Assembly (NCBI GenBank): GCA_003153775.1
Contig: PMBI01000082.1
Span: 46,130 to 110,129, forward strand
Reading direction: 5' to 3'
From: Syntrophaceae bacterium
GTDB lineage: Bacteria; Desulfobacterota; Syntrophia; Syntrophales; UBA2185
DNA length: 64,000 bases
Shown: positions 13,643-57,789 of the stretch, one piece after another
Layout: every line of letters begins with the position of its first letter
Position numbering within the stretch: the first letter of the stretch is position 1
Made by a program: the position numbers and the translations under genes
The notes under the pieces: model-generated
Told to the model about the DNA's origin: nothing
The model's database searches: none
Seen by the model: only the letters and a program-made list of their open reading frames with translations

Positions 13643-13703
13643 CTAATATCATTTCCGCTTGACACCCTTCATTTCTACTAACCAAAAAGGACGAGGAGGA
13701 CCC

Positions 13704-17536: not shown

Positions 17537-17603
17537 GAGCAAATGTAGTTTTGGCCTGTGCGCGGTACAGGCAAAGCCGGAATCACCGTAGATGGAAAAC
17601 GGC

Positions 17604-31670: not shown

Positions 31671-31764
31671 GGAGAGATACCGAAGTGGTCGTAACGGGAT
31701 CGACTCGAAATCGATTTGAGGGCCAAAAGCTCTCACGGGGGTTCGAATCCCCCTCTCTCCGCCA
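31671..31764 (+). tRNA. tRNA-Ser (anticodon CGA), CCA encoded
   Basis: The acceptor stem is GGAGAGA/TCTCTCC. The anticodon stem atcga/tcgat carries the loop CU-CGA-AA. It has a long variable arm and a T-arm GGGGGTTCGAATCCCCC. Confidence 0.9.
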
Positions 31765-31845
31765 GCATTAAGGAATAGAGATCAGGGAATAGGGATGAAG
31801 CAAATTTTTTCTGAACCCTTTTTACTTACACCTGATCCCCAAGAT

Positions 31846-31939
<94 letters not shown>

Positions 31940-32051
31940 GCATTGGGGGAGGCATCAGGGAATAGAGGGCAGGAAACAGCTAGGCGACAGTGATCAAGGA
32001 CATGTTAAGTCATCTCTTATTTCTATCACCTGTCCTCTGATCCTTCAATAT

Positions 32052-32153
32052 GATAGCCGGGTCCCGTGGAACGAAGGGTTGTAAACCCCGCCAGGTCCGG
32101 AAGGAAGCAACGGTAGCAATTTCCGACGTGTGCTGCGGGTAAGCCTGGCTATC
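32052..32153 (+). ncRNA. ffs: Signal recognition particle RNA (small 4.5S type)
   Basis: The conserved domain IV core is ccgccaggtccggaaggaagcaacggtagc. The terminal helix pairs gatagccgg with cctggctatc. The position just upstream of dnaX is classical. Confidence 0.85.
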
Positions 32154-34513: not shown

Positions 34514-35113
34514 ATGACAGGTTACGCCCTTCCTATAAAACGTTTGATCGGGGAGCTCGGGAAATTACCGGGCATAGGAGAAAAAACAGCCACGCGGTTG
34601 GCCACATTTATCCTGCGTGCATCCGAGGAAGATGCAAGAAGGCTCGCGCAGAGCATCTTGGAGGTAAAGCAGAAGATACGCTTCTGCTCCGTATGTTTCA
34701 ATCTTGCCGAAGGGGGTCTCTGCGAAATATGCATGGATCCTTTACGGGACAAGAACCTCATATGTGTTGTCGAAGAGCCTGACTCGCTCATTGCGATAGA
34801 AGAAAGCGGGAGCTTCAGAGGAACCTATCATGTGCTCCACGGGGCCTTGTCTCCTCTCGACGGTATCGGACCGGATCACCTGAGATTACGAGAGCTCGTA
34901 AAAAGGATCGCGGAGAACGGAGCGGAAGAGATAATAGTGGCAACAAATCCAAGCGTCCAGGGTGAAGCAACGGCCCTTCTCATTAACAAATCCGTCAAGC
35001 CTCTCGGCATCAGGGTAACCAGGATCGCCCTTGGTGTGCCCGTTGGCGGTGATCTGAAGTACATGGACAGGATGACGCTGTCTAAGTCCATGGAATACCG
35101 CAGAGGTCTCTGA
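34514..35113 (+). CDS. recR: Recombination protein RecR
   Basis: 199 aa with the HhH segment [13 protein letters not shown], a C4 zinc finger (CSVC...CEIC) and a Toprim segment. Confidence 0.92.
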
Positions 35114-35267
35114 AAACTTTTTTTGGAGATTCAGCCAGTAAATAGTTGACAAAAAAATACTTGACAGGGACAGAATTTTGTAATAGGTAGCCCAACATCA
35201 TTTCTGTTCAGCGTTAGTTCATCGTTTTTAACAATTTCTGCATCAATCCAATCTGGGAGATTTTCCA

Positions 35268-35813
35268 ATGATAGAAGTAAGATGGCATGGAAGAGGTGGT
35301 CAGGGAGCGGTAACGTCGGTTGAATTACTCGCATTGACCGCCATCGGCGAGGGGAAGTATGCTCAAGGTTTTCCAAGTTTCGGACCTGAGAGAAGAGGAG
35401 CGCCGGTTGCAGCATTCAACCGGATTGATGATCACCACATAAAGGTCAGATCTCAGATTTACAATCCGGATGTAGTGGTTGTCCTGGATGAGAGTCTCAT
35501 CGGCATGGTTAATGTTGCCGACGGACTGAAACCAGAAGGCGTACTCATTGTTAACACAGCAAAAACAGCAAAAGAAATTGCGGAAATCACGAAGTTCAAG
35601 GGAAAGATCGCTACAGTCGATGGGTCATCCATTGCGTGGAAGGAGCTTGGCGTTCCGATTACGAATACGACCATGCTTGGGGCGGTGATCAAGTGTACGA
35701 ATGCTGTTAAAATTGAATCAGTGAAGGATCCGGTGGATCATAGGTTCGGCAGGATCGCCAACAAGAACATGGCGGCCATGAAACGGGCATACGACGAAGT
35801 CAAATTTAACTAA
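35268..35813 (+). CDS. porG: 2-oxoacid (pyruvate/ketoisovalerate-type):ferredoxin oxidoreductase, gamma subunit
   Basis: 181 aa. RWHGRGGQGAVTS is typical of gamma subunits. Confidence 0.85.
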   Translation: MIEVRWHGRGGQGAVTSVELLALTAIGEGKYAQGFPSFGPERRGAPVAAFNRIDDHHIKVRSQIYNPDVVVVLDESLIGMVNVADGLKPEGVLIVNTAKTAKEIAEITKFKGKIATVDGSSIAWKELGVPITNTTMLGAVIKCTNAVKIESVKDPVDHRFGRIANKNMAAMKRAYDEVKFN

Positions 35814-35840
35814 TAAGTGAATGAGTGTTGAGGTATCACA

Positions 35841-36128
35841 ATGACAGAGAAAAAGTGGCCAGAAACCTGGCAAGATACAAATCCGGGGCTCATGATATTC
35901 AAACCTGGAAGCTCACGGTCATATTTGACCGGGGGCTGGAGGGCACAGAAGCCTATCTGGGATAATACGAAATGCATCAAGTGCGGCGTCTGCTATCTGT
36001 TCTGTCCTGAAGCGTGCATAACGGAAGACGCGGAAGGGTTCTTTATGGCAGATCTGAATTACTGCAAGGGCTGCGGCATTTGCTACCACGAATGCTGGCC
36101 GCGCGCCATAAAGATGGTAGAGGACTGA
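35841..36128 (+). CDS. porD: 2-oxoacid:ferredoxin oxidoreductase, delta subunit (2x[4Fe-4S])
   Basis: 95 aa with CIKCGVCYLFCP and CKGCGICYHEC motifs. Confidence 0.85.
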   Translation: MTEKKWPETWQDTNPGLMIFKPGSSRSYLTGGWRAQKPIWDNTKCIKCGVCYLFCPEACITEDAEGFFMADLNYCKGCGICYHECWPRAIKMVED

Positions 36129-36141
36129 GGAGGGATACTTT

Positions 36142-37308
36142 ATGTCGAAACGAATTGGAATGGAAATTGCTATGGCCGCGGCAGAAGCGGTCGCTTTATG
36201 CAGACCCGATGTGATCGCGGCTTATCCCATCACGCCTAACACACATATACCCGAACACCTGGCAGACATTGTTGCCGATGGAGATCTTGACTGCGAATAT
36301 ATAGCTGTGGAATCCGAGCATTCGGCGCTGAGCGCCTGTACGGGAGCGTCGGCAGCGGGCGCACGCGTCTTTACGGCGACAAGTTCACAGGGACTGCTGT
36401 ATATGTATGAAATCGTTCCGGTCGTGCCGTCCATGAGGCTTCCTGTTATCATGTGCCTTGGCAACAGGGCGATATCGGGTCCTATCAACATCTGGAACGA
36501 TCACAGCGATTACATGTGCGTGAGGGATCTGGGTTGGATTTCAATGTTCGCGTCAAACGGCCAGGAAACCATCGATATGTGCATCCAGGCCTTCAAGATC
36601 GGTGAGCATGCGGATGTTATGCTGCCGGTGCTTGTAAATCTGGACGGTTTCCAGCTTACCCATGTGGTTGAGGCGATGATGATGCCGGATCAGGAGGAAG
36701 TAGACAAGTTCCTCCCGCCGCGAAAACCCTTCGCAGCCCTGCATCCGGATAATGTAGTGTCCATGGGAACCCTGGGACTCCCGGATATCTATAACGAGGC
36801 AAAAAAGGCCAATGATGAAGCGCTCATCAATTCGAAGAAGGTCATCCTTGAAATATGGAAAGAGTGGGAGACCATGTTCGGCCGGAAGTATGAACCCATC
36901 ATGTCCTATAAGGCAAATGATGCCGATGTACTCATGCTTACCATGGGATCCATGGGTGAAACAGCGCAGGTTGCCATTGATGAGTTGCGCAAAGAAGGGT
37001 TCAAGGCCGGACTGTTAGACCTGAAGCTTTACAGACCATTTCCTGCGGATGAATTGAAAAAGGCAGTGAAAGGATGCAAGAATCTGATTGTTATAGATCG
37101 GGCTGTTATGTCTGGCGGTGCTGCTGCTCCTGTCTGTGCCGAGGTGAAATCTGTCCTTTATGATGAGCCGGATCGTCCCGTGATAACTAACGATATCATC
37201 GGCCTCGGTGGTCGCGACGTACGGGTCGAAGACTTTATAAAAATCTTCAAGAAGGCAGCCAAGGCTAAACCCGAAAGAGCATATGAAATTTACGGAGTGA
37301 GGGGATAA
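36142..37308 (+). CDS. porA: 2-oxoacid:ferredoxin oxidoreductase, alpha subunit
   Basis: 388 aa with YPITPNT and ESEHSA segments. Confidence 0.88.
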
Positions 37309-37310
37309 TC

Positions 37311-38276
37311 ATGAAGAGTATTGTAGAAAATTTTGATTTGTTTGCCCCAAAGCTGGTTGATAAAGAGGAATATTACTGTTCAGGACATCGCGCCTGCCAG
37401 GGTTGCGGTGAAGCATTAGCAATCCGCCTGATGGCAAAGGCTTTGGGTAAAGATACGGTAGTGACCAATGCTACGGGATGTATGGAAGTTACTGCTACCC
37501 CTTATCCGACGACGGCGTGGAAGCTTCCGTGGGTGCATGTGGCGTTTCCGAATTCCGCTGCCGTGGGAGCGGGTGTTGAGGCCGCCTTGAAAAGCCTTCG
37601 CAGGAAGGGGAAAATCGCTGACAGGGATGTAAAGGTGGTTTCCATCGGAGGCGATGGAGGGTCCTTTGACATTGGTTTCCAGGCCATTTCTGGAGCCATG
37701 GAGCGCGGTCATAACATGATCTATATCGTCTACGACAATGAAGCCTACATGAACACGGGCATTCAGCGTTCCGGCGCAACGCCCTACGGGGCATCGACAA
37801 CGACGAGACCCGCGGGCAAGCAAAGCGTCGGAAACACTACGTGGAAGAAGAACATGGCCGAGATCATGGTGGCCCACAAGGTGCCCTATGTGGCCACGGC
37901 TTGCCACAGCTACCCGTTTGATTTTATGGATAAAGTCAAAAAAGCAAAAAAAGTGAACGGTCCTGCCTTCATCCACTGTCTGGCTGTCTGCCCGACAGGA
38001 TGGCGGTGTCCGTCGGATGCATGTATCAAGATGGGCCGTCTCGCTGTGGAAACAGGTGTGTTCCCGCTGTACGAGGTGGAAAACGGGAAATACAAAATGA
38101 CCATTGAGATGCCCAAGAAGCTTCGGCCCATAGAAGATTATCTGAAGCCTCAGGGACGCTTCAGGCATCTCACGCCGGATCAGATTCAGATTTTCAAGGG
38201 AATGGCAATGCTTGAATACAATAAAGTGTTGGAGAGGATTAAGCATTCAAAATCCTGGTCGGATATGACAAGTTAA
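37311..38276 (+). CDS. porB: 2-oxoacid:ferredoxin oxidoreductase, beta subunit (TPP-binding)
   Basis: 321 aa with the Cys motif CQGCG, the TPP motif [10 protein letters not shown]...[10 protein letters not shown], and CPTGW. Confidence 0.88.
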
Positions 38277-38308
38277 GTTGCTATTATACGGGATAAGGTG
38301 ATTGAAGT

Positions 38309-38776
38309 ATGAAGACAGCGAAGAACAAGCAGAAATCGGTTAAAAGCATCATAAAGAAATATGATGGCGACAAGACAGCAATGATAGCCATCCTTCAGGA
38401 TGTGCAGGAAGAATTCAGATATCTACCAAAGGAAGCGCTTTCCTCTATTAGTAAGCAGATGGAGGTGCCCCTCACCAGGATCTATGAGATTGCAACATTT
38501 TACAACGCCTTCAGCCTCAAGCCTCGGGGCAGGAACTTGGTAGAGGTGTGCGCCGGGACGGCGTGTCACGTTCAAGGGGCTGCCAATCTCATGGACAGGA
38601 TAGAGAGAGATCTCAAGATTTGTTGCGGCGAAACGACGAAGGATAAAAAGTTCACCCTCGAAGAGGTCAGATGTCTCGGATGTTGCAGTCTGGCGCCTGT
38701 CGCGCGGATAAGCGGTAACATTCATCCTAACTTAACGCAGGACCAAATTCCGAAGGTTTTGGCAAATTATAAATAA
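38309..38776 (+). CDS. NuoE/HydC-like [2Fe-2S] thioredoxin-fold subunit
   Basis: 155 aa with the CAGTACH...CLGCCSLAP cysteine pattern. It starts 32 nt after porB. Confidence 0.85.
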   Translation: MKTAKNKQKSVKSIIKKYDGDKTAMIAILQDVQEEFRYLPKEALSSISKQMEVPLTRIYEIATFYNAFSLKPRGRNLVEVCAGTACHVQGAANLMDRIERDLKICCGETTKDKKFTLEEVRCLGCCSLAPVARISGNIHPNLTQDQIPKVLANYK

Positions 38777-38789
38777 TAGGGGTGGAAAA

Positions 38790-40703
38790 GTGAGTAAGAT
38801 CAATACACTTGAAGATTTGAACAAGGCAGCAAAAAGAGGGCTGGAATCTATCATCCCATCAAAGACGAAAATCATGGTCGGAATGGCGACGAGTGGGATC
38901 GCCTCGGGAGCCCAGGAGGTCTACAATGCCTTGGAAGCGGAGATAAAGAAACGGAAGCTGGACTTTGTCCTCAGCAAAACGGGGGCTATGGGGATGGATT
39001 GCATAGAGCCCCTTGTGGATGTCCTGCAGCCGAACAAGCCGCGTCTGGCTTTCAGCAAGATGACCGCCAAGAAGGTGCCGGAGGTTATCGACCAGATTGT
39101 GAAAGGTGCGACTAACGGTAACAAACCCACGTATAGAATGGATGAGGAAGACTTCATCTGTTTGAATGAAAAGAAGCCTTATTTCAAAGGCGCCGTTCCG
39201 AAAGATTTGGCGGATGTTCCCAAGATAGGGGATGTCAAATTCTACAAGAAGCAATTGAAGCTGGCCACCAGAAACTGCGGGATGATCAATTATGAGAGCA
39301 TAGATGAATACATCGCCAAGGGTGGTTACTTCAGCCTTCTTAAGGCCCTCACGAAAATGAAGCCGGATGAGATCATTGAAGAGATCATCGCTTCAGGTTT
39401 GAGGGGTCGTGGAGGCGGAGGGTTCCCCGCCGGCATCAAGTGGCAGACCTGCAGACGCGCCCATGGAGACATTAAGTACGTGATCTGCAATGGCGATGAA
39501 GGAGACCCCGGCGCTTACATGGACAGAAGTGTTATGGAAGGCGATCCCCATAGTGTCATCGAGGGCATGATTATTGGCGCATACGCCATCGGTTCCGGTC
39601 AGGGATTTCTTTATGTTAGAAATGAGTATCCTCTGGCTGTTGCCAATCTGCAGCGGGCAATTGACCAGGCGAGGGAATGCGGTTTCCTGGGGAAGAATAT
39701 TCTCAATACAGGGTTTGATTTTGATCTGAAAATCGGCAAGGGCGCAGGCGCATTTGTTTGCGGTGAATCGACGGCCTTGATGACTTCTCTGGAAGGCAAA
39801 GCCGGCGAGCCGAGAGCAAAATACATACACACAGTTGAGCATGGACTTTGGGACAGGCCGTCCAATCTGAATAATGTGGAGACATGGGCCAATGTTCCCG
39901 CCATTATCAGCAGAGGAGCGAAGTGGTTCTCCAGCATCGGCTGTAAGAACAATTCCGGAACGAAGGTATTTTCCGTTGTCGGCAAGATAAATAATATCGG
40001 GTTGGTTGAGGTTCCCATGGGGATACCTTTGAGAGATATTATCTATGAAATCGGCGGCGGGATTCCCGGAGGGAAGAAGTACAAGGCAGTGCAAACCGGT
40101 GGTCCATCCGGTGGATGCCTGCCCAATAGTCTGATAGATATTTCTGTTGATTTTGATTCTCTGTGGGAAGCCGGCTCCATGATGGGTTCCGGTGGTATGA
40201 TTGTCATGGACGAAAGCACCTGCATGGTAGACATTGCGAGGTATTTCATCGATTTCCTCGAATTTGAATCCTGCGGTAAGTGTGTTCCCTGCCGGGAAGG
40301 GGTTCATAGGATGAATGAAATCCTGCATGACATTTGCGAAGGCAAAGGAAAGAAGGGTGACGTTGAGCTTCTCGAGTCCATGTCCCAGGGTATCGTCGAT
40401 GGCGCCTTGTGCGCCCTGGGCAGCACAGCTGCAAACCCGATTTTGAGTACCCTCAAATATTTCCGTAATGAGTATGTCGCTCATGTTCGGGACAAGAAAT
40501 GTCCTGCCGGTGTCTGTAAGGCTCTGATCAGTTTCAAGATCAATGCAAAAAAATGCACGGGATGCGGCGTTTGCGCCAAGAAGTGTCCCACTGTCTGCAT
40601 AACCGGTCAAAAGAAAAAGCCACATGTGATTGATCAGAAAATATGTATCAGGTGCGGTGTCTGTAAGGAAAGCTGTAAATTTGAAGCAATAAGCATAGAA
40701 TGA
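38790..40703 (+). CDS. NuoF/HydB-like NAD(P)H-binding flavoprotein subunit with C-terminal 2x[4Fe-4S] domain
   Basis: 637 aa, GTG start. FMN/NADH segments are GLRGRGGGGFPAGIKW and CNGDEGDPGA. The 4Fe-4S segment is ESCGKCVPCREG. The C-terminal motifs are CTGCGVCAKKCP and CIRCGVCKESC. Confidence 0.88.
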   Translation: MSKINTLEDLNKAAKRGLESIIPSKTKIMVGMATSGIASGAQEVYNALEAEIKKRKLDFVLSKTGAMGMDCIEPLVDVLQPNKPRLAFSKMTAKKVPEVIDQIVKGATNGNKPTYRMDEEDFICLNEKKPYFKGAVPKDLADVPKIGDVKFYKKQLKLATRNCGMINYESIDEYIAKGGYFSLLKALTKMKPDEIIEEIIASGLRGRGGGGFPAGIKWQTCRRAHGDIKYVICNGDEGDPGAYMDRSVMEGDPHSVIEGMIIGAYAIGSGQGFLYVRNEYPLAVANLQRAIDQARECGFLGKNILNTGFDFDLKIGKGAGAFVCGESTALMTSLEGKAGEPRAKYIHTVEHGLWDRPSNLNNVETWANVPAIISRGAKWFSSIGCKNNSGTKVFSVVGKINNIGLVEVPMGIPLRDIIYEIGGGIPGGKKYKAVQTGGPSGGCLPNSLIDISVDFDSLWEAGSMMGSGGMIVMDESTCMVDIARYFIDFLEFESCGKCVPCREGVHRMNEILHDICEGKGKKGDVELLESMSQGIVDGALCALGSTAANPILSTLKYFRNEYVAHVRDKKCPAGVCKALISFKINAKKCTGCGVCAKKCPTVCITGQKKKPHVIDQKICIRCGVCKESCKFEAISIE

Positions 40704-41428
40704 AGGTAGGGGAAATGGTAAACTTTATCATAGATGGTAAGAAGGTTGAGGCTAAGGAAGGTGCAACGGTACTTCAGGTGGCCCGTAACAATGGCATAGT
40801 GATTCCAACCCTGTGCTGTCATGAGTCAGTCGCTCCATCGGGAGCATGCCGCCTCTGCGTGGTGGAGGTCAAGAAAGGCAAGAGGACGAGGATCGTGACG
40901 TCATGCCTGTATCCTGTTGATGAAGGTCTCGTTGTTGAAACGAAAACAGAAAGGGTTATGAATGTCCGGCGTCTCGTTATGCAGCTTCTCATGGCAAGGT
41001 GTCCTGAGTCCGACGTGCTTAAGGCAATGGCTAAAGAGATGGGCATTGAACCGCAACCCGCCTTTCATCCTGAAACAGACAAAGGGAAGTGCGTGCTATG
41101 CAGGCTTTGCGTTAAGGCCTGTGAAGATGTTGTGGGCGTTAGTGCCATTGGTCTATCGGGTAGAGGCAAAGATAAAAAAGTCGGCCCCCCATTCGTCGAG
41201 GATTCCAAAGCCTGTATCGGATGCGGTGCTTGTGCATATATCTGTCCGACGGAACATATCGTCATGGAGGCAACGGACGGCAAACGGAAGATATGGGGAC
41301 GTAGCTTCAAGATGCAGGCTTGCGAGAAATGCGGTAGGTATTTTGCCCCCGTTGACCAGCTGAAATACATAAGCCAGAAGACCGGCACGTCGCTGAAGGA
41401 GCTCGCGGTCTGCGTAAGCTGTAAATAA
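40700..41428 (+). CDS. NuoG/HydA N-terminal-like FeS protein ([2Fe-2S] + 2x[4Fe-4S]); no catalytic domain
   Basis: 242 aa with LCCHESVAPSGACRLC, CVLCRLCVKAC and CIGCGACAYICP motifs. The start overlaps the upstream stop (ATGA). The protein ends well before any H-cluster or molybdopterin domain. Confidence 0.8.
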   Translation: MKVGEMVNFIIDGKKVEAKEGATVLQVARNNGIVIPTLCCHESVAPSGACRLCVVEVKKGKRTRIVTSCLYPVDEGLVVETKTERVMNVRRLVMQLLMARCPESDVLKAMAKEMGIEPQPAFHPETDKGKCVLCRLCVKACEDVVGVSAIGLSGRGKDKKVGPPFVEDSKACIGCGACAYICPTEHIVMEATDGKRKIWGRSFKMQACEKCGRYFAPVDQLKYISQKTGTSLKELAVCVSCK

Positions 41429-41497
41429 GAAATCCATTCAGGAACGTCGTTATCAGCATAAAGGCCATTTGACGCGCTGTCAGGGCATGAAATAATG

Positions 41498-41535
41498 AAA
41501 GCCCCGGTGATATTTTTCACCGGGGCTTTTTATTC
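41498..41535 (+). terminator. Intrinsic terminator closing the por/NuoEFG-like operon
   Basis: 12-bp stem aaagccccggtg / caccggggcttt followed by ttatt. Confidence 0.75.
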
Positions 41536-45741: not shown

Positions 45742-46920
45742 TCAGCCCGCTGATATTTTTTCTGTAGCCGCGCGGGCTTCCTCGTACACTGTCCTCAGGG
45801 GAATCCCCTGTCTTGCGGCGATCTCCCGGCAGTCTTCATATTCCGGCGATATAATCCTTTTCTCCATGCCCCTATTGCTGACCTTTACCCTTACCGCTCC
45901 GAACGAAGTCTCTACAGTGATCAGCTCTCTCGGGAGTTTTCTTCTTTCCAGGCGCTGGAATCTGACCCCGAGGGAAGTTGTTTCCGTGAATACTACGGAG
46001 AGGGCCTCATCTAATTTATCAGGTGTAATCAAAATGCTGAGCAGTGTCCCCGGCCTGTTCTTCTTCATGAATATGGGCGTCATGAAAACGTCAAGGGCGC
46101 CTCTTTCAAAGAGTCTTTCCAAGGCGTAGCCGAGGATCTCCGGGTTCATGTTGTCGATATTGGTTTCGATGAGGATGACCTCGTCGTCTTCGTATCCCTC
46201 TCTTACTTCCGTCTCACCTATCCAGACCCGCAGCAGGTTCGGTATTTTCAAATCCCTGCTCCCGGCGCCATAGCCTATGCTTTCAATGGTCATTCCCGGG
46301 ATCACACCGAAACTTCTTGCCACGTGTTTGAGAATGGCAATCCCGGTGGGTGTGACAAGTTCTTTCTCGATGCCGCTCGCATATACGGGAATGCCCTTAA
46401 GAAGTTCGAGGGTGGCGGGTGCGGGAAGCGGCAGGACGCCGTGGTCACATTCAACGAATCCTGTCCCCACGGGTATTCTCGAGGCGTACACGGCTTCAAT
46501 GCCGAGCATCTCTATGGCTATGAGAGAACCGGCAACGTCAACAATGGAATCCAGTCCGCCGATCTCATGAAAATGAACATGTCCGGGATCGGCGTTGTGG
46601 ATCTTCGCCTCAACCTCTGCGAGGTCGCGAAAGATTACCTTTGCCTTCGCCTTGATTTCATCGCCAAGATCACTCTTATCCATGATCTTCTCGATGTCTG
46701 TAAGATGTCTCTCGGCGTGGCTCTCGTCTGCATTGACAGAGAATTTTGTTCCTGAGATCCCCTTCCTCGTTGTTTTTTCGGCCTTCAGGGTGAATCCGGA
46801 TATCTTCAGTTTGCTCAGTTCCAATTCAAGCTTCTTGAGATCAGCCCCGGCATCTATCAGCGCTCCCAGTATCATGTCTCCGCTGACGCCTGAGAAACAG
46901 TCGAAATAGGCTATCCTCAT
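45742..46920 (-). CDS. larC: Nickel-pincer cofactor biosynthesis protein LarC (nickel insertion, DUF111)
   Basis: 392 aa. The N-terminus is MRIAYFDCFSGVSGDM. HFHEIGGLDSIVDV and a C-terminal RKNRPG segment are present. Confidence 0.88.
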   Translation of the reverse strand: MRIAYFDCFSGVSGDMILGALIDAGADLKKLELELSKLKISGFTLKAEKTTRKGISGTKFSVNADESHAERHLTDIEKIMDKSDLGDEIKAKAKVIFRDLAEVEAKIHNADPGHVHFHEIGGLDSIVDVAGSLIAIEMLGIEAVYASRIPVGTGFVECDHGVLPLPAPATLELLKGIPVYASGIEKELVTPTGIAILKHVARSFGVIPGMTIESIGYGAGSRDLKIPNLLRVWIGETEVREGYEDDEVILIETNIDNMNPEILGYALERLFERGALDVFMTPIFMKKNRPGTLLSILITPDKLDEALSVVFTETTSLGVRFQRLERRKLPRELITVETSFGAVRVKVSNRGMEKRIISPEYEDCREIAARQGIPLRTVYEEARAATEKISAG

Positions 46921-47675
46921 TTTTCCTCACCCATATGGTTTATAAGACTTGCAAAGTATCCAGCCCCAAATCCGTTATCAATATTCACAGTCACAGAGCC
47001 CGGTGAACAACAGTTCAGCATGGACAGCAACGCCGCCAGGCCTTCGAAACTGGCGCCGTAGCCCACGCTGGTCGGTACGGAAATCACGGGACTATCGACA
47101 AGTCCGCCGATTATGCTTGCGAGGGCCCCTTCCATGCCGGCTACAACTATTATGACGTTTGCTTTGAACAGCTTTTCCTTGCTGTCGAAGAGTCTGTGCA
47201 CCCCGGCAACACCGATGTCGTAGATCCGTTCGACGGCATTCCCCATGATCTCCGCCGTAACCGCCGCCTCCTCAGCGATCGGCACATCGGATGTCCCTGC
47301 AGTGACCACAAGGATCGACTTGGCCGATTTCTTCTTCCTTTTTTTCCCCGCGAGGACGATTTTGGCCGCTTCGTAGTAGACGGCATCCTTCCTTATTTTC
47401 CTGACGGCCTTAAAGACCGTCTTGTCGGCCTTTGTTGCCATGATGAATTTCGTCTCCGGTGAGAGGCTCTCTACAATTCTCGTGATTTGTTCGATAGACT
47501 TTCCCCGGCATAATATCACTTCCGGAAAACCTCGCCGCAAATCCCTGTGGGTATCGATCTTGGCGTCGCCCAAATCCTCGTAGGGAAAAGACCGCAAGGC
47601 CCTCAGTGCATCATCGATCCCCGTTTTCCCGGCCCTAACGTTTTCCAAAAGCTTCCTGATCTTTTCTCTGTCCAT
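46917..47675 (-). CDS. larB: Nickel-pincer cofactor biosynthesis protein LarB (PurE-like carboxylase/hydrolase)
   Basis: 252 aa with an AIR-carboxylase-like core (VVTAGTSDVPIAEEA...VVAGMEGALAS). Its stop overlaps the larC start. Confidence 0.85.
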   Translation of the reverse strand: MDREKIRKLLENVRAGKTGIDDALRALRSFPYEDLGDAKIDTHRDLRRGFPEVILCRGKSIEQITRIVESLSPETKFIMATKADKTVFKAVRKIRKDAVYYEAAKIVLAGKKRKKKSAKSILVVTAGTSDVPIAEEAAVTAEIMGNAVERIYDIGVAGVHRLFDSKEKLFKANVIIVVAGMEGALASIIGGLVDSPVISVPTSVGYGASFEGLAALLSMLNCCSPGSVTVNIDNGFGAGYFASLINHMGEEK

Positions 47676-47677
47676 CT

Positions 47678-48496
47678 CTATTCCTCGTCCTTCAATGGTT
47701 CATTCATGCTGCCCATCCTGTAACCCTGAATATCCAGAGCGACATACGCGTATCCCAAGAGTTTGAATTTTTCCATAATCAGTTTTGATATCTCCTCGTC
47801 GAGAAATATGGGCATGTCTGCGCGGAGCACCTCTATCCTGGCAATATTGCCGTGGTCCCGGACCCTCAATTGCCGAATCCCGAAACCTGCCAGGAATTCT
47901 TCCGCACGACCGACGCGCAGCAGCTTCTCTTTGGTAATTTGCGTGCCGTATGGGAACCGCGTTGACAGGCATGGCAACGGCGGCTTGTCCCACGTAGGGA
48001 GATTCATCTCCTTCGATAAGGCTCTGATATCTTTTTTTGTGAAACCCGCATCCTTAAGCGGACTCCGGACGCCGAACTCTTGAACCGCCCTCATTCCCGG
48101 ACGAAAATCTCTTTCGTCGTCAGGTGTCGAACCGTCTGCGATGTATTTCAAACCGTGCCTCTTTGCCAGTTCGGTAAGCTTGGTGAAAAGCTCTTTCTTG
48201 CAATGGTAGCATCTATCCGGTGGATTGGACGAGAAATTCGGGTCGTCCAGTTCATCTGTGTACATTACAATATGCTGTGCGCCGATTGCTTCTGCATTCT
48301 TCTTGGCATCACGGAGTTCTTGTGCTGTGTATGTTTCCGAACTCGCAGTGACGGCTATGGCTTTGTTGCCCAAAACGTTTGCCGCAACCTTGAGCAGGAA
48401 GGTGCTGTCCATACCTCCGGAATAGGCAATGAGGACACTTTGCATATCAGTCAGTATGTTTTCCAGTGATTCCAATTTTGAGGAAAGCTCTGTCAT
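47678..48496 (-). CDS. larE: ATP-dependent sacrificial sulfur transferase LarE (PP-loop)
   Basis: 272 aa with the PP-loop AYSGGMDS and the catalytic-Cys context PLPCLSTRFPYG. Confidence 0.85.
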   Translation of the reverse strand: MTELSSKLESLENILTDMQSVLIAYSGGMDSTFLLKVAANVLGNKAIAVTASSETYTAQELRDAKKNAEAIGAQHIVMYTDELDDPNFSSNPPDRCYHCKKELFTKLTELAKRHGLKYIADGSTPDDERDFRPGMRAVQEFGVRSPLKDAGFTKKDIRALSKEMNLPTWDKPPLPCLSTRFPYGTQITKEKLLRVGRAEEFLAGFGIRQLRVRDHGNIARIEVLRADMPIFLDEEISKLIMEKFKLLGYAYVALDIQGYRMGSMNEPLKDEE

Positions 48497-54416: not shown

Positions 54417-54527
54417 AAACCGGTGTTTTAGGCCGTGGCAGACACATCTGAGCGGTCTTTTAATCCTCATTACATAATCTATGGATGTACGCACAAGAAA
54501 TTCTGACCTGCCTGTTGTGGGCGAAAG

Positions 54528-54622
54528 CTTCTCCGATCTGCTCCTTCTAAAGATTATTCCATGAAGGGCTGACAATGGGTATGACTGGAAACGGTCCTGC
54601 CTCCCGTGTTTGGAAAGGGGAA
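54528..54622 (+). promoter_or_regulatory. Candidate Moco/Tuco-type riboswitch-like element (unverified)
   Basis: Motif-like segments CUCCGAU, GACUG-GAAA-CGGUC (GNRA hairpin), GCCUCCC and GGAAAGGGGAA are present. A possible closing helix pairs UUCUCC with GGGGAA. The resemblance was judged from memory of the consensus only. Confidence 0.3.
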
Positions 54623-54678
54623 TAGGAAAATATACCGGAAAAATATTTTCTCATGTAATTCTCAGAAAGGAGCTTTTT

Positions 54679-57600
54679 ATGGATGTCAGCAGAAGAGGTT
54701 TCTTGAAGATCTCCGGCGCTGTTCTGGCGACGAGCGGAATCGGCATAAGCTTGAAGCCCGTATCCGCCCATGCCCAGCCGCTGAAGATCAAGTACACTAA
54801 AGAGACCACAACGGTCTGTCCTTACTGCTCCGTCGGATGCAGCATTATTGTTGCTACACGGGAGGGCAAGGTCATCAACACGGAAGGCGATCCGGACAGC
54901 CCCATTAACAAAGGTTCTCTGTGCAGCAAGGGCGGGTCCATCTACCAGATGTCCGTCAACGAGAACCGTTTGGGAAAGCCTCTCTACAGGGCGCCCTATG
55001 CCACGGAATGGACGGAAATGGAATGGGAAGAGGCGCTCGAGAAGATTGCAGCAAATATCAAGAAAAGCCGTGATGCGAGCTTCAAGTCCAAGAATGATAA
55101 GGGCGAGACCGTAAACCGGACGGAAGGCATCGCCTCAGTCGGAAGCGCCGCCATGGATCTCGAAGAGTGTTACACCTATCAGAAATTTCTAAGGGGGTTA
55201 GGTCTGGTCTATATCGAACACCAGGCCCGTATCTGACACAGCCCGACTGTACCGGCTCTGGCAGAGTCGTTCGGACGCGGCGCAATGACAAACCACTGGG
55301 TTGATTTTAAGAACAGTGACGTGATTCTCATCATGGGAAGCAACCCCGCTTCCAACCACCCTGTTTCCTTCAAGTGGATACAGGAGGCCATGGACAAGAG
55401 GGGGGCAAGGGTGCTCAGCGTGGACCCGAGGTTTACCCAGTCCTCGGCAAAGGCACATGTGTATGCACCTCTGCGGTCGGGGACTGATATCGCCTTTCTT
55501 GGCGGTATGATAAAGTACATCATCGATAACAATCTTCACTTCGCAGAATATGTGAAGAATTATACCAATGCCTCCTTCCTGGTTAATCCGGCCTTCAAAC
55601 TTCCGGGAGACAATAACGGCGTGTATTCAGGATTGGAAGGCAGCAAGTACAACAAGGATACCTGGTCCTATCAGACCGGGCCAGGCGGAGTGATAAAGAA
55701 GGATACGAGCCTGCAGGATCCCCACTGTGTGTTCCAGCTTCTGAAAAAGCATTATTCCCGATATACCCCGGAACTCGTTTCCAGGATCTGCGGGACGCCC
55801 CAAGAGAAGCTTTTAGAAATTTATAAGGAGTATGCATCAACGGGGAAGCCTGACAAGGCGGGTGTCGAGCTTTACGCCATGGGCTGGACGCAGCATACCG
55901 TCGGGACGCAGATGATCCGCACCATGTGCATGGTTCAACTTCTTCTGGGCAATATGGGTATCGCCGGCGGCGGTGTCGCAGCCATGAGGGGCGAGTCCAA
56001 TGTCCAGGGCTCGACGGATCATGGCCTGCTGTTCCACATCTGGCCGGGATATATCGGGGCTCCTACGGCGTCCTTAAAGACACTGAAGGAGTTCAACGAA
56101 AAAAGAACACCCACCACCAAGGAGAAGACCAGCCTGAACTGGTGGAAAAATTTTCCGAAGTACTCGGCAAGTTTCCTGCGTTCCATGTACGGGACAAATG
56201 CCACCCTCGAAGAGGCCTATGGCTTGATGCCCAAACTCGATGACGGCGTTAATTACTCCTGGCTCATGATCTTCGACCAGATGTACAAGGGTAAGTTTAC
56301 GGGCTTCTTCGCCTGGGGCATGAACCCTGCCTGCAGCGGCGCCCACGCGAATAAAGTCAGACAGGCCATGGGAAAACTGGACTGGATGGTGAATGTCAAT
56401 CTCTTTGACAATGAGACCGGTTCTTTCTGGAGAGGTCCGGGAATGGACCCGACCAAGATTAAAACTGAGGTCTTCCTGCTGCCATGCGCCTCTTCCATCG
56501 AGAAGGAAGGGAGTCTTGCCAACAGCAGCCGGTTGATGCAGTGGCGCTATAAGGCTGTGGAACCCCCCGGAGTGGCCAAGCCGGATGGCGACATCATGAG
56601 CGAGCTATTCTTCAAGGTCAAAGCACTTTACGAAAAACAGGGCGGCCCTTATAAAGAACCCCTGACGCAACTCACATGGCCCTATGGTAAGAAGACGCTG
56701 GATGGCCATTACCACTACGACCCCCACATGGTGGCTAAGGAGATCAACGGGTTCTTCCTCGCCGACAAGAAGGTCGAGAATCCCACCAAGAAGGGCGACT
56801 TTAAGGAGTTCAAGAAGGGCGATCCTGTCCCCACCTTCGCCTGGCTTCAGGATGATGGTTCGACATCATCGGGAAGCTGGGTCTACTGCGGCTCCTATGC
56901 CGATAAGGGAAATATGGCGGCGCGCCGCGGCACAAAAGACGCATCCGGTATCGGTCTCTTTTCCGAATGGGCCTGGTCCTGGCCCGTCAACCGCAGGATA
57001 ATTTATAACGGCGCCTCCGTAGATCTGAACGGCAAGCCATGGGATCCCAAACGCCCGGTCATCGCATGGAATGGCGAGAAGTGGGTAGGCGATGTGCCGG
57101 ACGGTGTCGGCGATCCCGGTTCGGGAAGACCGCCTTTCATCATGAAGCCTGACGGCGTGGCCAGTCTCTTTGGACCGGGTCTGGTGGACGGTCCTTTCCC
57201 GGAGCATTACGAACCTCTCGAGTGTCCCGTCGAGAAGAACATCCTTTCTCCCCAGAAGCACAACCCCGCCATCCGCCGCTTTGATAAGCCCGGCGTCGGC
57301 TCCGAGATGGATGTTTACTCCGGTGTTACGGGTTGTGACCCGCGGTACCCCTTCATTTGCAGCACATACAGGGTCAGTGAACATTGGCAGACGGGTGTGC
57401 TCACCAGATGGTGCCCGTGGCTCGCGGAAATGCAGCCGGGCATGTTCGTGGAGATGAGCGTGGAGCTGGCCAGGGACAAGGGTATCAAGAACGGCGAGAA
57501 GGTAATCGTGAAATCTGCACGAGGTGAGGTTGAGGCTACGGCCATAGTCACACCGAGGTTCAAGCCTTTCAATATCGACGGTAACATCATTCACGAAGTG

Positions 57601-57789
57601 GGCATTCCCTGGCATTTTGGCTGGATCACCCAGGCGCGACCAAAAAAGAAGTACGGGAAGCTGGACAAGAAGCCTCAGGTGTTTACTTACGGGGATGCGG
57701 CCAATCTGCTGACGCCGACGATTGGCGATGCCAATACCATGATACCCGAGAGCAAGGCGTTCATGGTCAATGTCGTGAAGAGGGGGTGA
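54679..57789 (+). CDS. fdnG: Formate dehydrogenase catalytic subunit (FdnG-type, periplasmic, selenocysteine-containing)
   Basis: The Tat signal is SRRGFLK and the 4Fe-4S motif is CPYCSVGCS. An in-frame TGA at 55234-55236 lies within EHQARI-U-HSPTVPALAESFGRGAMTNHW. Track ORFs 54610..55236 and 55285..57789 share a frame with no other stop between them. Confidence 0.9.
55237..55280 (+). promoter_or_regulatory. Putative SECIS hairpin
   Basis: An imperfect stem-loop (cgactg tacc ggctct ggca gagtcg) begins about 8 nt after the UGA. Confidence 0.5.

What the first reader, a model, noticed from the sequence alone, without database searches (positions are those of the whole stretch)
35268..41428. 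Seven-gene operon joining a four-subunit 2-oxoacid:ferredoxin oxidoreductase to a HydBC/NuoEF-type flavin module with no hydrogenase or FDH partner
porG, porD, porA and porB are followed after 32 nt by three more genes. These encode a NuoE/HydC-like [2Fe-2S] protein, a NuoF/HydB-like FMN/NAD(H) subunit with the extra C-terminal 2x[4Fe-4S] domain, and a 242-aa NuoG/HydA-N-terminal-like FeS protein whose start overlaps the previous stop. One strong terminator (41498-41535) closes the unit. In characterised electron-bifurcating HydABC, FDH-HylABC and NfnABC-type enzymes, the third subunit carries or recruits the catalytic site. Here it stops after the FeS domains, and the only catalytic partner encoded in the operon is the 2-oxoacid oxidoreductase. 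This predicts a complex that couples 2-oxoacid/acyl-CoA chemistry to NAD(P)(H) and ferredoxin, possibly by flavin-based bifurcation or confurcation. To my knowledge such a POR-linked complex has not been characterised biochemically. It would matter for the energetics of a syntrophic anaerobe.
Basis: partly seen in the sequence, partly recalled or inferred. Interest (0 to 1): 0.7.

Follow-up and report, generated by a model that had tools for sequence, protein, structure and literature searches.

The report
POR fused to bifurcating flavin module
This is a real seven-gene operon joining a pyruvate:ferredoxin oxidoreductase to a HydBC-type NADH/ferredoxin flavin module; the arrangement was already named "Por-Bfu" from genome comparisons in 2022, but nobody has yet tested it biochemically.

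Summary
Seven co-directional genes (porC/G, porD, porA, porB, bfuC, bfuB, bfuA) sit at the stated coordinates. Gaps between them are at most 32 nt, and a strong terminator closes the unit. The window comes from a Syntrophales MAG.

Schut et al. [quoted passage not shown] I found no later biochemical study.

- **Conserved linkage:** the order porCDAB-bfuCBA holds in every locus with enough upstream DNA and a full-length BfuA of at least 45% identity. These include Syntrophus aciditrophicus, other Syntrophales, Syntrophorhabdaceae and SAR324. One further such locus (L018) keeps porCDAB and BfuA but carries a different flavoprotein in place of bfuCB.
- **BfuB:** it carries the sequence marks of bifurcating enzymes, namely the B1, B2 (with His), B3 and B4 ligands, GGPSG, and Ala/Met at the NADH site.
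- **BfuA:** it is WorA-type, with a zinc finger and no C-terminal helix.
- **New detail:** in this Syntrophus-type subclade the N-terminal thioredoxin-like domain of BfuB has lost all ligands of the "B5" metal site.

Most likely it is one enzyme coupling pyruvate/acetyl-CoA+CO2 to NAD(H) and ferredoxin, probably working as a confurcating pyruvate synthase. Complex formation and bifurcation remain inferred.

The parts
35114..35267 (+). 5' intergenic region between recR and porC; the likely promoter region (unverified)
   Evidence: A 154-nt gap follows recR (34514-35113). Two TTGACA hexamers lie at 35146-35151 and 35161-35166. The consensus scan called no site here and Rfam found no RNA family.
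35268..35813 (+). porC/porG, POR gamma subunit (181 aa)
   Evidence: PF01558 scores 1.7e-38. TIGR02175 PorC_KorC scores 224.9 bits against a cutoff of 81.1. NF006321 scores 224.1 against 225.
35841..36128 (+). porD, delta subunit with 2x[4Fe-4S] (95 aa)
   Evidence: TIGR02179 PorD_KorD scores 97.2 bits against a cutoff of 60. The cluster motifs are C45/48/51/55 and C75/78/81/85.
36142..37308 (+). porA, alpha subunit (388 aa)
   Evidence: POR_N scores 2.1e-65 and PFOR_II 6.3e-27. The best solved relative is 9bt4_B, the PFOR alpha subunit, at 1.2e-88.
37311..38276 (+). porB, TPP-binding beta subunit (321 aa)
   Evidence: NF008819 PorB equivalog scores 434 bits against a cutoff of 405. 9bt4_C matches at 1.3e-91, with the Cys residues C29, C32, C57, C227 and the GDG...N TPP motif conserved.
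38309..38776 (+). bfuC (HydC/NuoE-like), carrying the [2Fe-2S] cluster C1 (155 aa)
   Evidence: PF01257 scores 1.1e-51. The ligands are C81-x4-C86...C122-x3-C126. The eight best PDB hits are all C subunits of Bfu-family enzymes and rank ahead of complex I.
38790..40703 (+). bfuB (HydB/NuoF-like), with FMN, the NAD(H) site, B1 [4Fe-4S], the B2 Cys/His site, C-terminal B3/B4 [4Fe-4S], and an N-terminal thioredoxin-like domain that has no metal ligands (637 aa, GTG start)
   Evidence: Pfam domains are. The nine best PDB hits, 618-738 bits, are Bfu-family B subunits (NfnB, StnB, HydB, WorB), whereas non-bifurcating FDH beta and NuoF/Nqo1 score 388 bits or less.
40700..41428 (+). bfuA (WorA-type short HydA/NuoG N-terminal homolog), with A1 [2Fe-2S], two [4Fe-4S] clusters (A2, A4) and a C-terminal Cys4 zinc finger; 242 aa, or 237 aa if it starts at 40715
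   Evidence: 9mqx_A (WorA) matches at 4.5e-52 over residues 6-231. The invariant Cys residues are listed. There is no HxxxCxxCx5C motif. The start codon question is shown.
41497..41530 (+). intrinsic terminator closing the operon (reads as a hairpin on both strands)
   Evidence: a 14-bp stem, dG -26.7 kcal/mol, z = -6.4, and none of 200 shuffles fold as well.

Best explanation
The seven genes encode one 'Por-Bfu' enzyme: a four-subunit, TPP-dependent pyruvate:ferredoxin oxidoreductase (PorABCD) wired to a BfuABC electron-bifurcating module.

**Shown from sequence**
- All subunits and cofactor ligands are present.
- The operon layout is intact.
- The linkage is conserved in distant lineages.

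**Inferred**
- Electrons from the TPP site pass through the PorB and PorD [4Fe-4S] clusters to clusters A4-A2-A1 of BfuA. From there they reach the B1-FMN-C1 'flavobicluster' of BfuBC.
- That site exchanges a hydride with NAD(H) at the FMN.
- It exchanges single low-potential electrons with ferredoxin through C1 and the C-terminal B3/B4 clusters.
- The overall reaction would be 2 pyruvate + 2 CoA + NAD+ + 2 Fd(ox) <-> 2 acetyl-CoA + 2 CO2 + NADH + 2 Fd(red).

**Likely direction in vivo**
In an acetyl-CoA-rich syntroph the reductive direction is the likely one. NADH and reduced ferredoxin would be confurcated to make pyruvate for biosynthesis. This halves the demand for reduced ferredoxin, which the cell must otherwise generate at the cost of ion-motive force.
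For: 1. **Architecture.** The domains and gaps match the published Por-Bfu description.
2. **Conserved linkage.** The order porCDAB-bfuCBA holds in S. aciditrophicus SB (72-74% identity). It also holds in every genome contigs locus that has a full-length BfuA of at least 45% identity and enough upstream DNA, apart from L018, where a different flavoprotein replaces bfuCB (item 6). These are Syntrophales L007 and L010-L014, Syntrophorhabdaceae L015, bacterium STA_72 L016 and SAR324 L017. The projected porB-bfuC gap is 49 nt or less in all 11 loci checked, and the genes overlap in L016 and L017. POR and Bfu subunit identities fall together across these loci, as expected for a unit inherited as a whole.
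3. **BfuB is of the bifurcating type.**
   - The nine best PDB hits are Bfu-family B subunits at 618-738 bits, against 388 bits or less for non-bifurcating homologs.
   - B1 ligands: C495/498/501/541.
   - B2 ligands: C478, C516, H565, C571, C576, equivalent to C438, C476, H525, C531, C536 of NiFe-Bfu.
   - B3/B4 ligands: C589-599 and C619-629.
   - The FMN loop GLRGRGGGGFP is present.
   - The Losey criteria are met: A242/M244, GGPSG at 437-441, and Phe rather than Tyr.
4. **BfuA is WorA-type.** It has A1, A2 and A4, no A3, a zinc finger and no C-terminal helix. This is exactly what PMC12318220 reports for Por-Bfu. In the solved WorABCSL structure this subunit type relays electrons from a separate catalytic module.
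5. **A characterised precedent.** Wor-Bfu uses a third substrate of similarly low potential and needs both NAD and Fd.
6. **An independent module swap.** L018 has porCDAB, then a NuoF-4Fe4S/GltD-like FAD protein, then a BfuA-like gene. This argues that the POR-BfuA pair is meant to connect to a pyridine-nucleotide flavoprotein.
7. **Thermodynamics.** With pyruvate at 0.1 mM or less, the couple sits near -360 to -420 mV, between NADH and reduced Fd. Confurcating pyruvate synthesis is therefore feasible (E0' is taken and the concentrations are assumed).
8. **Expression of the ortholog.** The S. aciditrophicus protein is probably SYN_RS00435, which is detected in the crotonate proteome (the match is made by genome position).
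Against: - No experiment shows that the seven proteins associate or that the enzyme bifurcates, here or in the literature I could search.
- The N-terminal thioredoxin-like domain of BfuB lacks every ligand of the B5 site. The 2022 family definition treated B5 as universally conserved. This is softened by the bifurcating C. saccharolyticus NfnABC, which has only Zn there; its authors reduced the minimal site to B1-FMN-C1.
- S. aciditrophicus soluble extract reduces ferredoxin with pyruvate + CoA at 12 nmol/min/mg with no NAD+ added. If Por-Bfu is that organism's only POR, coupling is not strict. I could not count other OFOR paralogs.
- Por-type BfuA lacks the C-terminal helix that docks the catalytic module in WorABCSL, so the docking mode to POR is unknown.
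- Substrate specificity is not proven. Only PorB passes its equivalog cutoff.
Confidence: 0.6

Rival explanations
1. A non-bifurcating, NAD(H)-linked pyruvate oxidoreductase. POR and BfuABC form a complex, but BfuABC acts only as a diaphorase, as HoxEFU does in NAD-reducing hydrogenases or PadH in phenylglyoxylate dehydrogenase. The enzyme would then be a plain pyruvate:NAD+ oxidoreductase or NADH-dependent pyruvate synthase with no obligatory ferredoxin.
For: The linkage evidence is the same as for the main explanation. The B5 site is lost. L018 replaces BfuBC with a simple GltD-like NAD(P)H flavoprotein. OFORs coupled to NAD through a flavoprotein do exist as a family: the NCBIfam Pad models appear among the hits, although far below their cutoffs. 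Syntrophs are known to favour non-bifurcating NADH enzymes.
Against: BfuB keeps the C-terminal B3/B4 clusters, the B2 His site, GGPSG and Ala/Met at the NADH site. All of these are absent from characterised non-bifurcating homologs. NADH alone (about -280 to -320 mV) cannot drive pyruvate synthesis at -360 to -420 mV, so a pure NADH-dependent synthase would be thermodynamically poor. It would work only in the oxidative direction.
Confidence: 0.2
2. Two separate enzymes that are merely co-transcribed. One is an ordinary ferredoxin-dependent POR. The other is a free BfuABC that exchanges electrons between ferredoxin and NAD(H). They would be coupled only through the soluble ferredoxin pool.
For: POR's delta subunit can reduce free ferredoxin on its own. 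S. aciditrophicus extract shows NAD-independent pyruvate:Fd activity. BfuA has no recognisable docking helix. The AlphaFold model of BfuA was too poor to say anything about interfaces.
Against: A BfuABC whose A subunit ends in clusters leading nowhere has no third substrate. Every characterised Bfu enzyme uses BfuA to connect to a catalytic partner. The gene order and tight or overlapping junctions are conserved across several distant lineages. In my sample, full-length zinc-finger BfuA of at least 45% identity was never found without POR genes wherever upstream DNA was available.
Confidence: 0.13
3. The three Bfu genes are BamGHI, the NAD/ferredoxin module of class II (tungsten) benzoyl-CoA reductase, encoded away from bamBCDEF. 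Their position next to por would be incidental. The probable S. aciditrophicus ortholog was labelled this way in Agne et al. 2022.
For: Agne et al. list SYN_RS00435 as 'BamH'. Schut et al. place Por- and Bam-linked BfuB in the same clade, 45. The nearest non-Por BfuA relatives in my sample, at 49-52% identity, sit beside Hdr/MvhD-like genes of the Bam type.
Against: No bamB (AOR-family) or Hdr-like bamCDEF genes lie within about 10 kb of the S. aciditrophicus locus or in the annotated stretch of the window from 30.7 to 51.4 kb. The Hdr/Bam-linked BfuA proteins (L021, L022) lack the C-terminal zinc finger that is invariant in the Por-linked set. The por linkage also occurs in lineages such as SAR324 and, according to the paper, Dehalococcoides.
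Confidence: 0.05

Closest known systems
Por-Bfu (BfuABC + PorDEFG), predicted by Schut et al. 2022, Front Microbiol 13:946711; the example there is Dehalococcoides mccartyi 195
   Same: The seven-subunit gene set is the same: four POR subunits, BfuC, BfuB and a short BfuA lacking A3/A5 (Type 2). [quoted passage not shown] BfuA has the zinc finger and no C-terminal helix, as stated in PMC12318220.
   Different: This copy and its Syntrophus-type relatives have a BfuB whose N-terminal domain lacks all B5 ligands and carries an insertion of about 19 aa. At the B2 site it has Cys (C516) where the D. mccartyi sequence printed in the paper's supplement has Thr.
WorABCSL of Acetomicrobium mobile (PDB 9MQX), an electron-bifurcating tungsten aldehyde oxidoreductase
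   Same: WorA is the best solved match to BfuA (4.5e-52): A1, A2, A4, no A3, and a zinc finger. A separate low-potential catalytic module feeds a BfuABC core. [quoted passage not shown]
   Different: The catalytic module is WorSL (tungstopterin plus a polyferredoxin nanowire), docked by a C-terminal helix of WorA. That helix is absent here, and there is no WorS homolog in the operon.
NfnABC of Caldicellulosiruptor saccharolyticus (PDB 9BOV) and HydABC [FeFe]-hydrogenases (7Q4V, 8A6T, 7P5H)
   Same: These are the best solved matches to BfuB (738, 715, 677 and 618 bits) and strong matches to BfuC. They share the FMN, B1, B2, B3, B4 and C1 ligands. NfnB shows that the B5 site need not hold an Fe-S cluster.
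   Different: Their A subunits carry the catalytic site themselves (NADPH/FAD or the H-cluster). Here BfuA is a bare relay and catalysis sits in POR.
Four-subunit pyruvate:ferredoxin oxidoreductase (PDB 9BT4; NCBIfam PorA/B/C/D families)
   Same: The alpha, beta, gamma and delta subunits are all present, with TPP and [4Fe-4S] motifs. The matches are 1e-88 and 1e-91 to 9bt4 alpha and beta, and PorB passes its equivalog cutoff.
   Different: Stand-alone PORs use free ferredoxin only and have no NAD(H) module encoded alongside.
NADH-dependent phenylglyoxylate dehydrogenase PadEFGHI
   Same: It is a 2-oxoacid oxidoreductase of the same superfamily that is linked to NAD. The Pad models do hit the POR subunits.
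   Different: All scores are far below the Pad cutoffs, for example PadG 312 against 700 and PadI 240 against 700. From my own knowledge of the system, its NAD link is a different flavoprotein, PadH, and not a NuoEF/HydBC module.

Membership tests
Bfu (BfuABC/HydABC-type) electron-bifurcating family, Schut 2022 | BfuB with the Nuo51 FMN/NADH domain, SLBB, the NuoF [4Fe-4S] domain and a ferredoxin-type 4Fe-4S domain (IPR011538, IPR019554, IPR019575, IPR017896) | tested here: met
   PF01512, PF10531, PF10589 and PF00037 are all found in the 637-aa protein. The definition is quoted.
Bfu (BfuABC/HydABC-type) electron-bifurcating family, Schut 2022 | BfuC of the NuoE type (IPR002023) with the C1 [2Fe-2S] ligands | tested here: met
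   PF01257 scores 1.1e-51. The ligands are C81, C86, C122 and C126. The top PDB hits are Bfu C subunits.
Bfu (BfuABC/HydABC-type) electron-bifurcating family, Schut 2022 | BfuA with at least a [2Fe-2S] domain and a ferredoxin-type 4Fe-4S domain | tested here: met
   Fer2_4 plus Fer4 families. The Cys residues are invariant across 19 homologs.
Bfu (BfuABC/HydABC-type) electron-bifurcating family, Schut 2022 | B1 [4Fe-4S], the B2 Cys/His site (His absent from non-bifurcating homologs) and the C-terminal B3/B4 [4Fe-4S] clusters | tested here: met
   B1 is C495/498/501/541. B2 is C478, C516, H565, C571 and C576, mapped residue by residue onto 7t2r_B. B3/B4 are C589-599 and C619-629.
Bfu (BfuABC/HydABC-type) electron-bifurcating family, Schut 2022 | B5 metal site in the N-terminal thioredoxin-like domain of BfuB (stated to be conserved in all members) | tested here: not met
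   Only one Cys (C71) lies in residues 1-120. The ligand positions are Gly, Ser, Ala and Asp. The later C. saccharolyticus NfnABC structure has Zn here and still bifurcates, so its authors reduced the minimal site to B1-FMN-C1.
Bfu (BfuABC/HydABC-type) electron-bifurcating family, Schut 2022 | Signature residues separating bifurcating from non-bifurcating beta subunits (Losey 2020): Ala/Glu and Met at the NADH site, Phe not Tyr near FMN, and GGPSG in the SLBB domain | tested here: met
   A242 and M244 (DPGAYMDR) and GGPSG at 437-441 are present. I could not map the Phe/Tyr position onto T. maritima numbering with certainty, but both candidate positions (F322, F380) are Phe.
Bfu (BfuABC/HydABC-type) electron-bifurcating family, Schut 2022 | Catalyses coupled reduction or oxidation of NAD(H) and ferredoxin with a third substrate | not testable with these tools
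   This needs anaerobic enzymology. No published assay of any Por-Bfu was found.
Por-Bfu subtype | Four POR subunit genes contiguous with bfuC, bfuB and bfuA in one cluster | tested here: met
   The arrangement is conserved in 11 loci.
Por-Bfu subtype | Type 2 BfuA (A1, A2, A4; no A3/A5) with a zinc finger and no C-terminal alpha-helix | tested here: met
   There is no HxxxCxxCx5C motif. The zinc-finger Cys residues C208, C211, C238 and C241 are invariant. The protein ends one residue after the last Cys.
Por-Bfu subtype | The seven proteins form one complex and are co-expressed | not testable with these tools
   The only support is indirect: operon structure and the D. mccartyi co-expression cited.
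Four-subunit pyruvate:ferredoxin oxidoreductase (pyruvate synthase) | Alpha, beta, gamma and delta subunits with the TPP motif and three [4Fe-4S] clusters | tested here: met
   
Four-subunit pyruvate:ferredoxin oxidoreductase (pyruvate synthase) | Pyruvate specificity, judged by scores above the NCBIfam equivalog cutoffs | tested here: inconclusive
   PorB scores 434 against 405 and passes. PorC scores 224.1 against 225, PorA 473.5 against 550 and PorD 106.7 against 120, all below cutoff. The Vor, oxalate and Pad models score lower.
[quoted passage not shown] | Encoded with, or belonging to, bamBCDEF (AOR-type BamB and Hdr/MvhD-like subunits) | tested here: not met
   No such genes flank the cluster in the window or in S. 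aciditrophicus. Hdr-linked relatives have a BfuA without the zinc finger.
NADH-dependent phenylglyoxylate dehydrogenase (PadEFGHI) | Scores above the Pad equivalog cutoffs, and a PadH-type flavoprotein | tested here: not met
   PadE scores 166.8 against 300, PadF 78.5 against 150, PadG 312 against 700 and PadI 240 against 700.

The most novel reading that the evidence does not exclude
The Syntrophus-type Por-Bfu may be a confurcating pyruvate synthase that draws half its electrons from NADH and half from reduced ferredoxin, and it may do so with a BfuB whose B5 domain binds no metal at all.

If so, two things follow. Acetyl-CoA assimilation in syntrophs would need only half the Rnf-generated reduced ferredoxin now assumed in the S. 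aciditrophicus energy model. It would also be natural proof that B1-FMN-C1 plus B3/B4 is enough for Bfu-type bifurcation.
Probability: 0.35. Interest if true: 0.65.

Novelty: new member of a known kind. Interest (0 to 1): 0.35.

Why it matters
Syntrophs live close to the thermodynamic limit and must spend ion-motive force, through Rnf, to make the reduced ferredoxin that pyruvate synthesis needs. An enzyme that takes half its electrons from NADH would lower that cost, and current energy budgets would need revising.

Por-Bfu is also one of several Bfu classes that exist only as predictions. The family is very common in Syntrophales metagenomes: more than 1,400 BfuA relatives were found, and the best 120 are 66-95% identical. 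A cultured host, S. aciditrophicus, carries it and probably expresses it, so the question is directly testable.

The metal-free B5 domain adds a natural test of the minimal bifurcation site proposed in 2025.

Tried and rejected
- **AlphaFold2 of BfuA.** With a 19-sequence alignment it gave mean pLDDT 60.7, and below 50 across the whole ferredoxin domain. I did not use the model for fold searches or any structural claim.
- **Complex prediction.** No multimer prediction is available here, and fused constructs are not accepted, so the POR-BfuA interface could not be modelled.
- **Leader RNA.** Rfam found no RNA element in the operon leader or at the junctions.
- **Literature, nothing useful.** A Dehalococcoides complexome search returned nothing relevant. 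A deep-sea Chloroflexi paper had no POR-NuoEF discussion.
- **Literature, not held.** McInerney 2007 and James 2019 (S. aciditrophicus genome and proteome) are not in the library. Supplementary Table 1 of Schut 2022, which lists the members, is also not held. I therefore could not confirm that S. aciditrophicus is among their 12 Por sequences, nor count its other OFOR paralogs.
- **Phe/Tyr criterion.** I could not map Losey's Phe-367 (T. maritima numbering) unambiguously, because the T. maritima alignment was not printed. I report both candidate positions instead.
- **Pad-type reading.** I considered and rejected a Pad-type NADH-dependent 2-oxoacid dehydrogenase, because the scores are far below the cutoffs.
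- **FDH partner.** I considered and rejected the selenocysteine formate dehydrogenase 13 kb downstream as a partner. It has a Tat signal, so it is periplasmic, and it has its own Moco riboswitch.

Full report
**Observation.** The gaps between them are 27, 13, 2, 32, 13 and -4 nt. Pfam and NCBIfam confirm every domain call:
- POR gamma.
- A delta subunit with 2x[4Fe-4S].
- An alpha subunit (POR_N + PFOR_II).
- A TPP-binding beta subunit, whose PorB equivalog scores 434 bits against a cutoff of 405.
- A NuoE/HydC-like [2Fe-2S] protein.
- A NuoF/HydB-like protein with an added C-terminal 2x[4Fe-4S] domain.
- A 242-aa protein with a [2Fe-2S] domain and a 2x[4Fe-4S] domain.

The terminator is a 14-bp hairpin with dG -26.7 kcal/mol and z = -6.4. 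The porB-bfuC junction has no terminator-like site and no significant structure. The only correction concerns the last gene. It may start at 40715, which has a good Shine-Dalgarno sequence and is where most homologs begin, rather than at 40700.

**Source and surroundings.** The exact BfuA sequence occurs on NCBI contig PMCZ01000096.1 of assembly GCA_003154275.1 and on an ENA metagenome scaffold labelled WOOD18-1. A 97% identical locus is titled 'Syntrophales bacterium'. Upstream lie two tRNAs, SRP RNA and dnaX-ybaB-recR. Downstream lie DUF2284, an acetyltransferase, an old-yellow-enzyme homolog, MarR, larCBE, peroxiredoxins and cbiMNQO. None of these is related in function, so the seven genes stand as a self-contained unit. 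A selenocysteine formate dehydrogenase lies 13 kb downstream. It has a Tat signal and its own Moco riboswitch, so it is not a partner.

**What is already known.** Schut et al. 2022 renamed the extended HydABC family 'Bfu'. Among its predicted classes they described 'Por-Bfu (A-G)', which has four pyruvate oxidoreductase subunits.
- They counted 12 sequences, placed in BfuB clades 35, 44 and 45.
- They cited co-expression in D. mccartyi 195.
- They proposed that it makes pyruvate for gluconeogenesis from NADH and Fd.
- They called it uncharacterised.

A 2025 structure paper on WorABCSL notes that the WorA homolog of Por-Bfu has the zinc finger but lacks the C-terminal helix. Searches for 'Por-Bfu' and for 'BfuABC' plus 'pyruvate' returned only these papers and two other structural or genomic studies. 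I therefore found no biochemical characterisation up to mid-2026, within the limits of the held library.

**Is the linkage conserved?** Yes.
- In S. aciditrophicus SB the same seven genes, at 67-74% identity, lie at about 84.5-90.7 kb of CP000252.1, again downstream of dnaX-ybaB-recR.
- A genome-contig scan with a BfuA alignment returned 80 loci. I checked them by tblastn with the seven window proteins.
- Every locus with a full-length BfuA (zinc finger included) of at least 45% identity, and with enough upstream DNA, has porCDAB directly upstream. L018 keeps porCDAB and BfuA but replaces bfuCB, as described under the variants below. The others are Syntrophales L007 and L010-L014, Syntrophorhabdaceae L015, 'bacterium STA_72' L016 and SAR324 L017.
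- The projected porB-bfuC gap is 49 nt or less in all 11 loci checked, and the genes overlap in the two most divergent loci.
- Identities of POR and Bfu subunits fall in parallel, as expected for a unit inherited together.

**Is the flavin module of the bifurcating kind?** The nine best PDB matches to BfuB score 618-738 bits. They are B subunits of Bfu-family enzymes: 9bov, 7q4v/7q4w, 7t2r, 8oh5, 9mqx, 9n5u, 8a6t and 7p5h. Non-bifurcating FDH beta and NuoF/Nqo1 reach 388 bits at most. Residue-level mapping gives the following:
- B1 at C495, C498, C501 and C541.
- The B2 site at C478, C516, H565, C571 and C576, including the His that is missing from non-bifurcating homologs.
- B3/B4 at C589-599 and C619-629.
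- The FMN loop GLRGRGGGGFP.

The criteria of Losey et al. 2020 are met: A242/M244, GGPSG at 437-441, and Phe at both candidate positions. BfuC has the C1 ligands, and its top PDB hits are all Bfu C subunits.

One feature departs from the 2022 definition. The N-terminal thioredoxin-like domain has a single Cys. The four B5 ligand positions are Gly, Ser, Ala and Asp, and there is an insertion of about 19 residues. This state is shared by S. aciditrophicus, L010 and L012. Six other Por-linked BfuBs keep Cx4C...Cx3C. The bifurcating C. saccharolyticus NfnABC has only Zn at B5, and its authors define B1-FMN-C1 as the minimal site, with B3/B4 also required. The loss therefore does not disqualify the enzyme. 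It is, however, a more extreme state than any solved example.

**BfuA and the link to POR.** The best solved relative of BfuA is WorA (9mqx_A, 4.5e-52, residues 6-231). Like WorA, it has:
- A1.
- The two ferredoxin-type clusters A2 and A4.
- No His-ligated A3; the lone Cys in that stretch is not even conserved.
- A Cys4 zinc finger (C208, C211, C238, C241) that is invariant in 19 homologs.

In WorABCSL, electrons enter through A4 and travel A4-A2-A1-B1. Por-linked BfuAs end right after the zinc finger, so the WorA docking helix is absent. How POR docks is unknown. By analogy only, I infer that the distal PorD cluster feeds A4.

**Informative variants found along the way.**
- L018 has porCDAB followed by a 634-aa protein and then a BfuA-like gene. 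The 634-aa protein combines the NuoF [4Fe-4S] domain with a GltD-like FAD/NAD(P)H domain. A different pyridine-nucleotide flavoprotein thus occupies the same place, which supports functional coupling of POR to NAD(P)(H).
- L025, L026, L029, L030 and L052 have a distantly related OFOR directly upstream of bfuCBA (PorA or PorC hits at 25-29% identity). In L025 it is VorB-type (519 bits against a cutoff of 399). In L025 and L052 BfuA carries an extra C-terminal tail of about 20 aa, and the next gene is a WorS-like four-cluster polyferredoxin. This looks like the WorABCSL design applied to a second OFOR family.
- L021 and L022 are Hdr/MvhD-linked (Bam-like), and their BfuA lacks the zinc finger.

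**Evidence from S. aciditrophicus.** Agne et al. 2022 screened the genome for NuoF-like proteins and listed three as 'BamH'. Only one, SYN_RS00435, was detected in the crotonate proteome.
- The Por-linked BfuB must appear in such a screen, because it is a strong NuoF homolog.
- It lies at 88.07-89.99 kb. SYN_RS00435 is the 87th feature of a genome with about one feature per kb. I therefore infer that the two are the same gene, but I have not verified this.
- No bamBCDEF genes lie within 10 kb.

The same paper reports pyruvate + CoA-dependent Fd reduction by soluble extract (12 nmol/min/mg) without added NAD+. It also reports pyruvate-dependent NAD+ reduction when membranes were added, which the authors ascribed to Rnf. 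The first result argues against strictly obligatory coupling if Por-Bfu is the only POR. The second could be partly confounded by Por-Bfu. Neither result is decisive.

**Energetics (my calculation).** I took E0' = -500 mV for the pyruvate couple (Table 1 of Schut 2022). With acetyl-CoA/CoA of 1-10, CO2 of 0.05-0.2 and pyruvate of 10-100 uM, the couple sits at about -343 to -420 mV. The mean potential of NADH plus reduced Fd is -365 to -410 mV. Confurcating pyruvate synthesis is therefore feasible near equilibrium. NADH alone would not suffice. Ferredoxin alone would be wasteful.

**Verdict.** It is a further member of a class already described from genomes, so its novelty is modest. Three results are new here:
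- The breadth of the linkage.
- The metal-free B5 domain in the Syntrophus-type subclade.
- The related OFOR-Bfu and GltD-swap variants.

Complex formation, coupling and direction all await experiment.

Noticed in passing
window 38790-39290 (BfuB residues 1-165); also L004:8076-8570, L010, L012: The N-terminal thioredoxin-like domain of BfuB has lost all four ligands of the B5 metal site (Cys changed to Gly, Ser, Ala/Ser and Asp) and gained an insertion of about 19 aa. This holds only in a Syntrophus-type subclade with 637-638-aa BfuB. Six other Por-linked BfuBs keep Cx4C...Cx3C. It contradicts the 'absolute conservation' of BfuBC cofactors claimed in 2022.
   Followed up: partly
L025:4678-11206; L052:7137-11226; also L026, L029, L030: This looks like a second kind of OFOR-Bfu cluster. 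In L025 a VorB-type 2-oxoacid oxidoreductase (VorB model 519 bits against a cutoff of 399, plus beta and gamma subunits) lies directly upstream of bfuCBA; L052, L026, L029 and L030 show only distant OFOR hits upstream (PorA or PorC at 25-29% identity). In L025 and L052 the 258-aa BfuA has a C-terminal tail of about 20 aa beyond the zinc finger, and the next gene is a 133-145-aa four-cluster polyferredoxin resembling WorS/HydN. I did not see this type described in the text of Schut 2022 that I read.
   Followed up: partly
L018:4944-10711: porCDAB is followed by a 634-aa protein and then a 235-aa BfuA-like protein. The 634-aa protein has a NuoF-type [4Fe-4S] domain, Fer4_20 and a GltD-like FAD/NAD(P)H domain. 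A different pyridine-nucleotide flavoprotein thus replaces BfuBC at the same position.
   Followed up: partly
L015:2761-7626: In a Syntrophorhabdaceae MAG, porD-porA-porB is duplicated in tandem upstream of bfuCBA, and no porC hit was found.
   Followed up: no
L004 (S. aciditrophicus CP000252.1, 88,072-89,985): By genome position, the Por-linked BfuB is very probably SYN_RS00435. Agne et al. [quoted passage not shown] No bamBCDEF genes lie within 10 kb, so that label looks mistaken.
   Followed up: partly
window 40700-40717: The bfuA start is ambiguous. The ATG at 40700 overlaps the bfuB stop but has no ribosome-binding site. The ATG at 40715 follows AAGGTAGGGG. The 'MKVGE' N-terminus that looks conserved in close relatives may simply be the translated Shine-Dalgarno sequence.
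   Followed up: yes
window 54519-57789 (+): A Moco/Tuco riboswitch (54519-54636, 67 bits) precedes a molybdopterin oxidoreductase. That gene has a twin-arginine signal and an in-frame TGA at 55234-55236 in the motif HQARI*HSPT, so it is a periplasmic selenocysteine formate-dehydrogenase-type alpha subunit. ORF finders split it into two ORFs.
   Followed up: partly
window 45742-48496 (-): These are larC (Ni_insertion), larB (AIRC) and a larE-like gene, the set that makes the nickel-pincer cofactor. No lactate racemase gene was seen in the stretch examined.
   Followed up: no
window 13659-15731 (+) and 59327-61495 (-): Two large ADP-forming acyl-CoA synthetase-type proteins are encoded here, with CoA_binding, Succ_CoA_lig and ATP-grasp_5 domains. 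They may bear on ATP formation from acetyl-CoA in this syntroph.
   Followed up: no
window 17369-17549 and 31671-32153: A cobalamin riboswitch (101 bits) lies upstream of a cluster that includes cobT (DBI_PRT, 18729-19880). Two 91-nt tRNAs and the small SRP RNA lie just upstream of dnaX.
   Followed up: no
window 6000-10000: G+C content dips to 0.43-0.47, against about 0.50-0.57 elsewhere. The dip contains a PIF1-like helicase with a C-terminal WYL domain (7819-9396, - strand). This may be a mobile or defence island.
   Followed up: no
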